Virus record (IMG/VR): IMGVR_UViG_2698536312_000011
DNA from: a virus
Lineage: Duplodnaviria; Heunggongvirae; Uroviricota; Caudoviricetes
DNA length: 7,114 bases
Strand: one strand, 5' to 3'
Shown here: in pieces, positions 2,339 to 2,588 of the stretch
How positions within the stretch are numbered: position 1 is the first letter of the stretch
Layout of the letters: each line of letters opens with the position of its first letter
Notes under the pieces: generated by a model
What the model was told of the DNA's origin: nothing
What the model saw: the letters and a program-made list of their open reading frames with translations, nothing else
The model's database searches: none
Position numbers and translations under genes: made by a program

Positions 2339-2491
2339 TAACAGCCGCAAATGCGGTAAACCACGAACCAACACGCCAGCAATACAGCGCCCCCCCTTCC
2401 AATACCGACCAATCCGCAACATTTACAAAAATAAAATACCTTTATTATCCATCACTTATAACTTATTTATCAGAATCCATAAATTAAGTTA

Positions 2492-2527
2492 TTGACCACC
2501 ACTATAACCTAGGTTATCTTTAAGCCA
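2492..2527 (+). promoter_or_regulatory. pL-like early-left promoter: -35 TTGACC (2492-2497), 17-bp spacer, -10 TATCTT (2515-2520), predicted transcription start at A 2527
   Basis: The sequence from 2527 (ATCAGCAGGACGCACT) matches the start of the lambda pL transcript as I remember it. The -35/-10 spacing is the same as lambda pL (TTGACA, 17 bp, GATACT, then 6 nt to +1). Confidence 0.7.
2504..2517. promoter_or_regulatory. Perfect 14-bp palindrome ATAACCTAGGTTAT in the pL spacer, overlapping the -10; candidate repressor operator (OL)
   Basis: The palindrome is seen directly and sits where lambda OL1 sits. Related half-sites occur upstream (ATAACTTA at 2458-2465 and its reverse complement TAAGTTAT at 2485-2492). 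Confidence 0.5.
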
Positions 2528-2588
2528 TCAGCAGGACGCACTACTCACCAGGGCGGTGAATATACAACGATTCGAATATGAATCTACG

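What the first reader, a model, noticed from the sequence alone, without database searches (positions are those of the whole stretch)
2341..2530. Intact-looking pL promoter and operator but no repressor gene upstream: immunity region replaced by IS630 and flagellar DNA
In lambdoid phages the cI/rex region lies immediately upstream of pL. Here only about 150 bp separate the IS630 end from the -35 and no repressor ORF is present, so the prophage is truncated or rearranged at this edge. The operon downstream still encodes N and a Kil-like protein. Either pL is repressed in trans by a homoimmune prophage elsewhere in the genome, or the operon is silenced or inactive.
Basis: partly seen in the sequence, partly recalled or inferred. 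Interest (0 to 1): 0.55.

Follow-up and report, generated by a model that had tools for sequence, protein, structure and literature searches.

The report
IS630-split prophage early promoter, Shigella
This is a normal early-left promoter and operator of a lambda-like prophage in a draft Shigella sonnei genome, cut off from its repressor gene by a copy of the insertion sequence IS630. The repressor region is very probably still in the same genome on another contig, so the finding is ordinary.

Summary
Window 2456-2520 carries a real lambdoid OL/pL. The promoter is TTGACC-17-TATCTT. A perfect 14-bp palindrome (OL1) overlaps the -10, a 3-mismatch copy (OL2) abuts the -35, and there is a third conserved block. 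IS630 (1186-2338) ends 153 bp upstream, and the window has no repressor gene. Intact relatives carry the same motif three times between cro and cI. They place cI, DUF3024, a 177-aa gene, a 44-aa gene and a terminator-like hairpin exactly where IS630 now sits.

The interpretation "immunity region replaced" is not supported at genome level. The window is a whole short-read contig of Shigella sonnei. Its IS630 is base-identical to at least 9 copies in a complete genome, and its two flanks come from different target sites. The cro gene and an S. sonnei-specific allele of the 177-aa immunity gene have protein accessions in the same number neighbourhoods as the window's own genes. They lie about three genes apart, which leaves room for cI.

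Most likely the prophage is only split by IS630. The cause is either a simple insertion plus an assembly join through the repeat, or an IS630-IS630 inversion. In both cases pL is held off in trans by its own CI. This is ordinary and of low interest.

The parts
1..28 (.). Right end of an IS1 copy inserted in fliZ. It is the contig edge.
   Evidence: ETEC H10407 matches the window from base 6 across the same junction and has an annotated IS1 transposase next to a truncated fliZ. The sequence equals the IS1 terminal repeat as I recall it.
29..219 (+). 3' fragment of fliZ.
   Evidence: 99% identical to E. coli fliZ. Carries PF02899.
353..1152 (+). tcyJ (fliY), cystine-binding periplasmic protein. 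It is intact.
   Evidence: annotated tcyJ; SBP_bac_3.
1163..1185 (+). Left half of the tcyJ terminator hairpin, cut at its CTAG loop by IS630. The TA at 1184-1185 is the target dinucleotide.
   Evidence: The empty site in E. coli reads AAAAAAGGGCGCTTTCAC-TA-GCGCCTTTTTT. The hairpin plus T-run was found by the terminator scan.
1186..2338 (-). IS630, 1153 bp. The transposase gene is at 1206-2237 on the - strand. The flanks are hybrid: CTA|IS|TAA.
   Evidence: 1153/1153 identical to 9 of 10 copies in the complete genome CP104423.1. Those copies are flanked CTA..TAG or TTA..TAA. The transposase has HTH plus DDE_3 domains.
2339..2455 (+). Non-coding phage spacer between the immunity-operon terminator and OL. 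It starts with the TA of the phage TTAA target.
   Evidence: 98.5-99.3% identical to intact relatives from exactly this base. In those relatives it is preceded by ...CCCCCATATT and a terminator-like hairpin. PGAP annotates no gene here.
2456..2470 (.). OL3-like conserved block TTATAACTTAT(TTAT). It has an ATAAC half-site with an irregular right half.
   Evidence: Invariant in four phages, including the 78%-identical HK639. It is not a match to the 14-mer at 3 mismatches or fewer, so it is only a putative third operator.
2479..2492 (.). OL2, ATAAATTAAGTTAT, abutting the -35.
   Evidence: It lies 25 bp from OL1, the same spacing as the OR sites in L002.
2492..2520 (+). pL promoter: -35 TTGACC (2492-97), 17-nt spacer, -10 TATCTT (2515-20).
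   Evidence: Homologous to the 'putative pL' annotated in HK639.
2504..2517 (.). OL1, ATAACCTAGGTTAT, a perfect palindrome overlapping the spacer and -10.
   Evidence: The same motif occurs in the cro-cI intergenic region of intact relatives.
2525..2528 (.). Immunity-region boundary. Homology to 933W/Stx-phage early-left DNA starts here, about at the expected transcription start.
   Evidence: matches begin at window 2525-2528.
2537..2603 (+). nutL. It contains a boxB-like hairpin, GCGCTGACAAAGCGC, at 2589-2603.
   Evidence: 99% identical to the stretch annotated nutL in phage 933W. The hairpin appears in the minimum-free-energy fold.
2769..3152 (+). N antiterminator, 127 aa, 933W/H-19B type.
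   Evidence: PF25694 N_peptide. 99.2-99.4% DNA identity to Stx phage N genes.
3155..4044 (+). Two small genes (143 aa and 149 aa) of unknown function. Their exact sequences occur only in a few S. sonnei draft contigs.
4152..4411 (+). cIII RNA thermometer (4152-4210), cIII (4165-4305, 46 aa) and kil (4298-4411, 37 aa).
   Evidence: Rfam RF01804 at 88.5 bits. PF02061 and PF06301.
4408..7114 (+). Rest of the early-left operon: a 62-aa ORF, a P-loop ATPase, a 195-aa protein, anti-RecBCD, DUF5405, DUF2737 and ead/Ea22, which is cut by the contig end.

Best explanation
Window 2456-2520 is the genuine OL/pL operator-promoter of a lambdoid prophage. Its immunity type is that of SH2026Stx1 and Stx2-1717-like phages, and its N-nutL module is of the 933W type. 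The host is a small clade of Shigella sonnei.

A copy of IS630 inserted at a TTAA in the non-coding spacer between the terminator of the cI operon and OL. This left all operators, the promoter, nutL, N, cIII and kil intact.

The repressor region (cro, cI, DUF3024, the 177-aa gene) has not been lost from the genome. It lies on another contig of the same assemblies, on the far side of an IS630 copy.

The apparent fusion to tcyJ arises in one of two ways. Either an assembler path ran through a multi-copy, sequence-identical IS630 (two simple insertions, one in the tcyJ terminator and one in the prophage). Or a real homologous exchange occurred between those two IS630 copies, an inversion that splits the prophage. 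I rate the two about equally.

In both cases CI, an HTH plus S24 LexA-like repressor, acts in trans. It binds OL1 and OL2 and keeps pL, and with it N and Kil, silent. SOS-induced CI autocleavage would fire pL, and N would antiterminate at nutL.

- **Shown:** the anatomy of pL/OL, the IS630 boundaries and hybrid flanks, the layout of intact relatives, and IS630 being multi-copy.
- **Inferred:** co-occurrence of the immunity region in the same genomes (from accession numbering), the presence of cI between cro and the 177-aa gene, and repression itself.
For: **The operator is real.**
- The operator motif is repeated at OR and OL of intact relatives, 7 sites against 0.28 expected.
- The operator and promoter blocks are conserved in SH2026Stx1 and HK639.
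- HK639 annotates pL at the homologous place.

**The operator goes with the repressor, not with N.**
- HK639 cI shares about 87% identity over the first 69 residues (the HTH domain) and keeps ATAAC..GTTAT sites.
- The HTH region of 933W-type cI is only 29% identical over 68 residues, and there is no operator homology although N is 99% identical.

**What IS630 displaced.**
- Intact relatives (L002, L034) are 98.5-99.3% identical from window base 2335-2339 onward. They carry cro, cI, DUF3024, the 177-aa gene, the 44-aa gene and a terminator-like hairpin immediately upstream.
- The left flank of IS630 matches the chromosomal CTAG site in the tcyJ terminator. The right flank matches the phage TTAA site.

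**The IS630 link is weakly supported by the assembly.**
- IS630 is identical to 9 of the 10 copies shown in the complete genome CP104423.1, the tenth differing at one base.
- S. sonnei is IS630-rich, and IS-flanked inversions are common there (PMC8072062, PMC12795559).
- The window is a complete 7114-bp draft contig. L004, L005 and IMG/VR contig L018 break inside the right end of IS630, and gene coordinates place L007 and five similar contigs at the same point.

**The immunity region is in the same assemblies.**
- The window's 149-aa and 143-aa proteins are S. sonnei proteins CSQ28256/28260, CSQ48718/48715, CSQ64053/64050 and CSQ76243/76238.
- The S. sonnei-specific allele of the 177-aa immunity gene is CSQ28036, 46633, 64531 and 77490.
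- Cro of this immunity type is CSQ28053, 46641 and 64525.
- These fall in the same number neighbourhoods. Cro lies 6-17 IDs from the 177-aa gene, while adjacent genes differ by 3-5 IDs. That is the spacing expected for cro-cI-DUF3024-177aa.

**cI is usually intact.** It is a full 235-aa gene in eight of the nine relatives checked, including the Shigella ones; the ninth (L043) has a frameshift.
Against: - The co-occurrence rests on accession-number proximity, not on reading the S. sonnei immunity contig.
- cI itself was not seen in S. sonnei.
- The reciprocal junction (immunity spacer + TA + IS630 end) was not found in IMG/VR. The IS630-pL junction was found there once, and no immunity-region contig from that isolate is in IMG/VR.
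- The same 7114-bp contig is recorded in 2 samples, plus one similar place. That argues against a purely random chimeric join, but it is compatible with a real inversion.
- Nothing here measures transcription.
Confidence: 0.62

Rival explanations
1. True IS630-mediated deletion. Recombination between two directly oriented IS630 copies removed everything from the tcyJ terminator to the spacer upstream of OL, including cI. This left an orphan pL-N-kil operon. A second, homoimmune prophage, the one carrying cro and the 177-aa gene, supplies CI in trans.
For: - The contig reads tcyJ-IS630-pL with hybrid flanks, as a deletion would give.
- The same contig is seen in more than one sample.
- The reciprocal junction was not found where searched.
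Against: - It needs two prophages of the same rare immunity type in a small clade. Only 3 of 5426 complete E. coli genomes carry this pL region at full length.
- The closest intact relative, L034, has the immunity region and the window's pL-N-143aa-149aa segment contiguous at 99.3%. One split prophage is therefore the more economical reading.
- The negative junction searches are uninformative. The positive-control junction was also absent from the genome and metagenome collections.
Confidence: 0.13
2. Orphan, unrepressed operon. The immunity region is truly gone from these genomes, so the accession inference is wrong. pL is then either constitutively active and tolerated, or functionally dead.
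For: - No repressor is in the window.
- cI itself was never observed in S. sonnei.
- Kil here is a short 37-aa form.
Against: - The Cro and 177-aa immunity proteins carry S. sonnei accessions interleaved with those of the window's genes.
- pL, OL1, OL2, nutL, N, cIII and kil are all intact. They are 98.5-99.4% identical to those of intact prophages and Stx phages, with no sign of decay.
- The 37-aa Kil and 46-aa cIII are the normal forms for this module in O157 and other prophages (L049, L058).
- From general knowledge of lambda Kil, constitutive N-dependent kil expression is expected to be toxic.
Confidence: 0.05
3. The palindrome and hexamers are a chance resemblance, not a promoter-operator.
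For: The promoter scan alone is not above shuffled background: 2 found against 1.5 expected. Five of 200 shuffles gave at least 2 motif matches in the window.
Against: - The same motif is clustered at OR and OL in relatives, 7 against 0.28 expected.
- Conservation is concentrated on these blocks across diverged phages.
- The position is exact relative to nutL and N.
- HK639 carries a pL annotation at the homologous place.
Confidence: 0.02

Closest known systems
Lambda pL/OL early-left control region (OL1-OL3 overlapping pL, then nutL and N)
   Same: - A sigma-70 promoter is overlapped by dyad-symmetric operators spaced about 24-25 bp apart.
- The same operator family is repeated at OR between cro and cI in relatives.
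- nutL and N lie directly downstream.
- In relatives the repressor operon ends in a terminator-like hairpin just upstream.
   Different: - The operator sequence, ATAACC-N4-GTTAT, is unrelated to lambda's.
- The third site is irregular.
- In this contig the cI operon is not upstream, because IS630 intervenes.
Phage 933W / H-19B early-left region (tM terminator, pL, nutL, N)
   Same: From window 2528 onward, nutL and N are 99.2% identical. The order terminator, pL, nutL, N is the same as in the 933W record.
   Different: The immunity is different. The 933W cI has an unrelated HTH, and there is no homology upstream of 2525.
Immunity region of Stx1 phage SH2026Stx1 (genes also named after Stx2-1717 and Stx2-86) and pL of HK639
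   Same: - The cI family is the same (an intact 235-aa ORF in SH2026Stx1).
- The accessory genes are the same (DUF3024, 177 aa, 44 aa).
- The operator half-sites and promoter blocks are the same.
   Different: The pL region is 91% (SH2026Stx1) and 78% (HK639) identical. HK639 uses a put-like RNA instead of N. In those phages the immunity region is contiguous with pL.
IS-mediated prophage disruption and inversion in Shigella genomes
   Same: - IS630 is multi-copy and sequence-identical.
- The IS is chimeric, with flanks from two different target sites.
- S. sonnei is IS630-rich, and long-read-confirmed inversions flanked by IS elements are reported there.
   Different: Here the rearrangement itself is unverified, because the only evidence is a short-read contig that runs through the repeat.

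Membership tests
Lambdoid pL/OL promoter-operator | A sigma-70 promoter oriented toward the N gene, directly upstream of nutL. | tested here: met
   TTGACC-17-TATCTT at 2492-2520. nutL at 2537-2603 by homology to the 933W annotation. N at 2769.
Lambdoid pL/OL promoter-operator | Two or more dyad-symmetric operator sites overlapping the promoter hexamers. | tested here: met
   OL1 at 2504-2517 is a perfect palindrome. OL2 at 2479-2492 has 3 mismatches. Spacing is 25 bp. A third conserved block lies at 2456-2470.
Lambdoid pL/OL promoter-operator | The same operator motif is present at OR, between cro and cI of the same immunity type. | tested here: met
   L002 has three regularly spaced sites at 4739, 4764 and 4788, plus a fourth overlapping match at 4729, between cro and cI.
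Lambdoid pL/OL promoter-operator | The cognate repressor gene lies immediately upstream on the same strand. | tested here: not met
   In the window IS630 and tcyJ lie upstream. The feature is met in all intact relatives. In the source genomes the region appears to be on another contig.
Lambdoid pL/OL promoter-operator | Repressor binding and repression have been demonstrated. | not testable with these tools
   This needs a footprint, EMSA or reporter assay. The only support here is operator-HTH covariation.
IS630 (IS630/Tc1-mariner superfamily) | An element of about 1.15 kb with terminal inverted repeats and a single DDE transposase. | tested here: met
   1153 bp, with ends AATAGCTGCGC / GCGCAGCTATT and a 343-aa HTH plus DDE_3 protein. 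It is identical to copies in CP104423.1.
IS630 (IS630/Tc1-mariner superfamily) | TA target duplication at a CTAG or NTAN site, with both flanks from one target (a simple insertion). | tested here: not met
   TA is present on both sides. But the left flank is half of the chromosomal CTAG site and the right flank is half of the phage TTAA site. It is a true IS630, but not a simple insertion as assembled.
N-antitermination module (933W/H-19B type) | An N protein with an arginine-rich N-terminus, plus a nutL with a boxB hairpin, between pL and N. | tested here: met
   PF25694. 99% identity to 933W nutL and N. Hairpin at 2589-2603.
Defective prophage remnant lacking its immunity region | No cognate repressor or immunity genes anywhere in the host genome. 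| tested here: inconclusive
   The whole genome could not be read. The accession neighbourhoods of Cro and the 177-aa immunity protein in S. sonnei argue against absence.

The most novel reading that the evidence does not exclude
The tcyJ-IS630-pL adjacency is real and no functional CI of this immunity type is made in these strains. A small S. sonnei clade would then carry an unrepressed, intact pL-nutL-N-cIII-kil operon and tolerate it. It might also receive read-through from tcyJ, whose terminator IS630 destroyed. That would be a natural case of a domesticated or host-wired phage early operon.
Probability: 0.05. Interest if true: 0.45.

Novelty: new member of a known kind. Interest (0 to 1): 0.14.

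Why it matters
It matters little biologically. The case shows how an insertion sequence in a short-read Shigella assembly can make a prophage look as if it had lost its repressor.

Two modest points of value remain:
- It gives a clear computational assignment of the operator motif (ATAACC-N4-GTTAT, at OL and OR) for an immunity group shared by some Stx1 phages and Shigella prophages.
- If the inversion is real, the prophage is split between OR/cI and OL/pL. It would then be locked in the chromosome while still SOS-responsive.

Tried and rejected
**Searches for the junctions in public collections**
- I searched for the reciprocal junction (immunity spacer + TA + IS630 end) in viral, genome and metagenome collections and found nothing.
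- The control junction (IS630 + pL) was also absent from the genome and metagenome sets. Those negatives therefore say nothing. Only IMG/VR held the control, once.

**Attempts to read the S. sonnei immunity contig or a complete-genome context**
- The TcyJ look-up, meant to find the locus in complete genomes, failed. The allele is in 55,461 blocks and only standard E. coli contexts came back.
- The IS630 transposase look-up returned 10 copies in one complete genome. None was at tcyJ, and the listing could not be paged.
- A search for the 177-aa gene in IMG/VR found no contig from the isolate that holds the IS630-pL junction.

**Checks on other possible content**
- Rfam found no RNA family in 2341-2768, only the cIII thermometer further downstream.
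- A minus-strand ORF starts near 2420 and crosses the IS630 insertion point. I rejected it as coding. PGAP annotates nothing there in the two relatives inspected, though one of the weaker-matching genomes lists a hypothetical protein under the match, and a poly-C tract differs in length between the window and relatives.
- The terminator scan did not flag the hairpin upstream of pL in L034. I read it by eye from the alignments, and by analogy with 933W tM.
- The FDAARGOS_943 prophage matches 3571-7114 at 99.5%. It sits at ybhC (att-lambda) with a lambda-like rex immunity region, so it gave no clue to the integration site here.

Full report
**What the window is.** The 7114 bases are one complete contig, CXDB01000179.1, of the draft assembly GCA_001256715.1. 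Exact look-ups of two of its proteins name the organism as Shigella sonnei, with Sanger-type CSQ accessions. Reading left to right:
- Bases 1-28 are the end of an IS1 inserted in fliZ. ETEC H10407 shows the same junction next to an annotated IS1 transposase.
- 29-219 is the 3' end of fliZ.
- 353-1152 is tcyJ (fliY).
- 1186-2338 is IS630, with its transposase on the minus strand.
- From 2339 onward is the early-left arm of a lambdoid prophage: OL/pL, nutL, N, two small genes, the cIII thermometer, cIII, kil, an ATPase-type recombination module, anti-RecBCD, and ead/Ea22 cut by the contig end.

**Checking the observation.** The promoter TTGACC-17-TATCTT is at 2492-2520. The perfect palindrome ATAACCTAGGTTAT is at 2504-2517, and a 3-mismatch copy lies 25 bp upstream at 2479-2492.

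On their own these are weak. The promoter scan finds 2 sites against 1.5 in shuffles. Comparison settles the matter:
- Two complete E. coli genomes (L001, L002) and an IMG/VR contig (L034) carry the same 195 bp at 98.5-99.3% identity.
- In L002 the 14-mer family occurs 7 times against 0.28 expected. Sites at 4739, 4764 and 4788 lie between cro and cI, spaced 25 and 24 bp, with a fourth overlapping match at 4729. Two more lie at pL. This is the classical OR/OL arrangement.
- In a four-phage alignment the invariant islands are exactly OL1 with the -10, OL2 with the -35, and a third block TTATAACTTAT at 2456-2466. The alignment includes Stx1 phage SH2026Stx1 and HK639, which is only 78% identical overall.
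- The HK639 record annotates 'putative pL' at the homologous place.

The motif follows the repressor, not N:
- HK639 cI is about 87% identical over its first 69 residues (the HTH domain) but diverged elsewhere, and HK639 keeps the ATAAC..GTTAT half-sites.
- Phages with a 933W-type cI share the N gene at 99% but have no homology upstream of window 2525-2528. Their cI has an unrelated HTH.

**What IS630 displaced.** In all ten long-contig contexts of this exact N protein, an S24-peptidase repressor gene (an HTH domain recorded in most) lies 1.9-3.3 kb upstream on the same strand, with a cro-like gene divergent from it. In the relatives of this immunity type the order is cro(-), cI (235 aa, HTH_3 + Peptidase_S24), DUF3024, a 177-aa gene, a 44-aa gene, a hairpin with a T-run, a spacer, then OL/pL. 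This parallels the tM-pL-nutL-N order annotated in 933W.

Homology between the window and these relatives begins at the TA at 2339-2340. The relatives read ...CCCCCATATT-TA-ACAGCC. IS630 therefore sits in non-coding spacer, 116 bp upstream of the OL3-like block and 153 bp upstream of the -35. Every control element is left intact.

**The IS630 junction is chimeric.**
- The empty chromosomal site is the tcyJ terminator hairpin, AAAAAAGGGCGCTTTCAC-TA-GCGCCTTTTTT. IS630 sits in its CTAG loop.
- The left flank of IS630 is therefore chromosomal and the right flank is phage.
- In a complete genome (CP104423.1), ten IS630 copies are flanked CTA|IS|TAG (8 copies) or TTA|IS|TAA (2 copies). The window has the hybrid CTA|IS|TAA.

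Three histories give this picture:
1. Two simple insertions, plus an assembler path through the repeat.
2. An inversion by recombination between two inverted copies.
3. A deletion between two direct copies.

The first two leave all four IS-flank junctions in the genome, and short reads cannot tell them apart.

**How far the contig can be trusted.**
- The window's IS630 is 1153/1153 identical to 9 of the 10 copies shown in CP104423.1.
- S. sonnei is significantly enriched in IS630 (PMC8072062).
- Of the 11 contigs that carry the window's 149-aa protein, only the window contig and one similar place run through IS630. L004, L005 and IMG/VR contig L018 begin with 32-36 nt of the right end of IS630, followed by identical phage DNA. 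Gene coordinates place L007 and five similar contigs at the same point.

The IS630|pL junction is therefore real and shared. The tcyJ-IS630-pL link rests on a path through an unresolvable repeat. Its recurrence in 2 samples, plus one similar place, argues against a purely random chimera, so I leave chimera and real inversion about equal. IS-flanked inversions confirmed by long reads are common in S. sonnei (PMC12795559).

**Is the immunity region gone?** Direct reading of the S. sonnei immunity contig was not possible. The junction searches were uninformative, because the positive control was missing from two of the three collections. Protein accessions give an indirect answer.

| Protein | Accessions shown | Contigs |
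|---|---|---|
| Window 149-aa | CSQ28256, 48718, 64053, 76243 | 7 |
| Window 143-aa | CSQ28260, 48715, 64050, 76238 | 7 |
| 177-aa immunity gene, S. sonnei-specific allele (P0156) | CSQ28036, 46633, 64531, 77490 | 7 (longest 13,077 bp) |
| Cro of this immunity type (P0225) | CSQ28053, 46641, 64525 | not S. sonnei-specific |

- Adjacent genes (143 aa and 149 aa) differ by 3-5 IDs.
- Cro and the 177-aa gene differ by 6-17 IDs. That is about three genes apart, the spacing of cro-cI-DUF3024-177aa in intact relatives.
- The immunity genes and the window's genes fall in the same four (for Cro, three) accession neighbourhoods.

I conclude, as an inference and with about 85-90% confidence, that the same S. 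sonnei assemblies hold the immunity region on a separate contig. cI is intact (235 aa) in eight of the nine relatives examined, including S. boydii, a S. dysenteriae-type contig and SH2026Stx1; the ninth (L043) has a frameshift. The closest intact relative, L034, has the immunity region and the window's pL-N-143aa-149aa-cIII-kil segment contiguous at 99.3%. One split prophage is simpler than two homoimmune ones.

**How it most likely works.** CI made from the immunity region acts in trans on OL1 and OL2 and keeps pL off. This holds whether the region is 1.2 kb away across IS630 or distant after an inversion. N, cIII and Kil stay silent.

On DNA damage, RecA-stimulated autocleavage of the S24 domain would release pL. 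N would then act at nutL (2537-2603, boxB-like hairpin at 2589-2603) to read through into cIII, kil and the recombination genes. If the prophage is split by an inversion it cannot excise as a unit, and OL-OR cooperation is lost. If IS630 is a simple insertion, the prophage may still be viable with 1.15 kb of extra DNA. All of these steps follow from lambda biology. None is measured here.

**Rivals.**
- A true deletion with a second homoimmune prophage supplying CI is possible but less economical (0.13).
- A truly orphan, unrepressed or dead operon is unlikely (0.05). The accession evidence argues against it, no element shows decay, and N-dependent kil expression is expected to be toxic.
- A chance motif is excluded for practical purposes (0.02).

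**Comparison with what is known, and novelty.**
- The element is a member of the lambdoid pL/OL class.
- Its N-nutL module is that of 933W/H-19B.
- Its immunity region is that of SH2026Stx1 and Stx2-1717-like phages. The operator motif appears not to have been characterised experimentally, as far as the records I saw show.
- IS630 is canonical.

The only unusual aspect is the hybrid-flank IS630. That is a routine outcome of IS activity in Shigella, or of short-read assembly. This is a new instance of a known kind, and interest is low.

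Noticed in passing
window 1-28 and 29-219: The contig starts with the last 28 nt of IS1 inserted in fliZ. ETEC H10407 has IS1 at the very same fliZ position, with the match continuous from window base 6. This means either shared ancestry of the insertion or an IS1 hot spot.
   Followed up: partly
window 1163-1185; L009 10879-10896: IS630 sits in the CTAG loop of the tcyJ terminator hairpin and so destroys the terminator. Transcripts from tcyJ could read into IS630, antisense to the transposase gene.
   Followed up: partly
window 2504-2517: OL1 contains CTAG, the preferred IS630 target, and forms a CCTAGG site. 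Yet IS630 used a TTAA 165 bp upstream. In the complete genome, 8 of 10 IS630 copies are at CTAG and 2 at TTAA.
   Followed up: partly
window 2391-2397: A poly-C tract is 7 C in the window and its S. sonnei sister contigs, but 6 C in the E. coli relatives. The length variation in the spacer argues that the stretch is non-coding.
   Followed up: partly
window 4152-4210: There is a strong match to the lambda cIII RNA thermometer (Rfam RF01804, 88.5 bits) in front of a short 46-aa cIII. Kil is also a short 37-aa form. The same short forms accompany the ATPase-type recombination module in O157 and other prophages (L049, L058).
   Followed up: partly
window ~4400 onward: There is a mosaic breakpoint. 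The closest immunity-type relatives (L034, L002) carry gam-bet-exo after kil. The window instead carries a 62-aa ORF, a P-loop ATPase, a 195-aa protein and anti-RecBCD, as in FDAARGOS_943 (99.5%) and O157 prophages.
   Followed up: partly
window 3086-3586: The gene after N is called either as 166 aa, starting at 3086 inside N, or as 143 aa, starting at 3155, in different assemblies. Its exact sequence and that of the next gene (149 aa) occur only in a handful of S. sonnei draft contigs of 7.1 kb or less. The prophage therefore seems confined to a small clade with no complete genome in the collection.
   Followed up: partly
L073 (NZ_CP065615.1, FDAARGOS_943): This RefSeq 'Escherichia coli' carries ipaH, IS600, IS1 and many pseudogenes around a prophage at ybhC. 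It looks like a Shigella or EIEC-type genome.
   Followed up: no
L051 (S. boydii CP026845.1) 7528-8097; L070 (SH2026Stx1) 1382-1951: cI is called or annotated as 189 aa, without the HTH domain, in these records. The full 235-aa reading frame with the HTH is intact in the DNA, so the start-codon annotation is probably wrong.
   Followed up: yes
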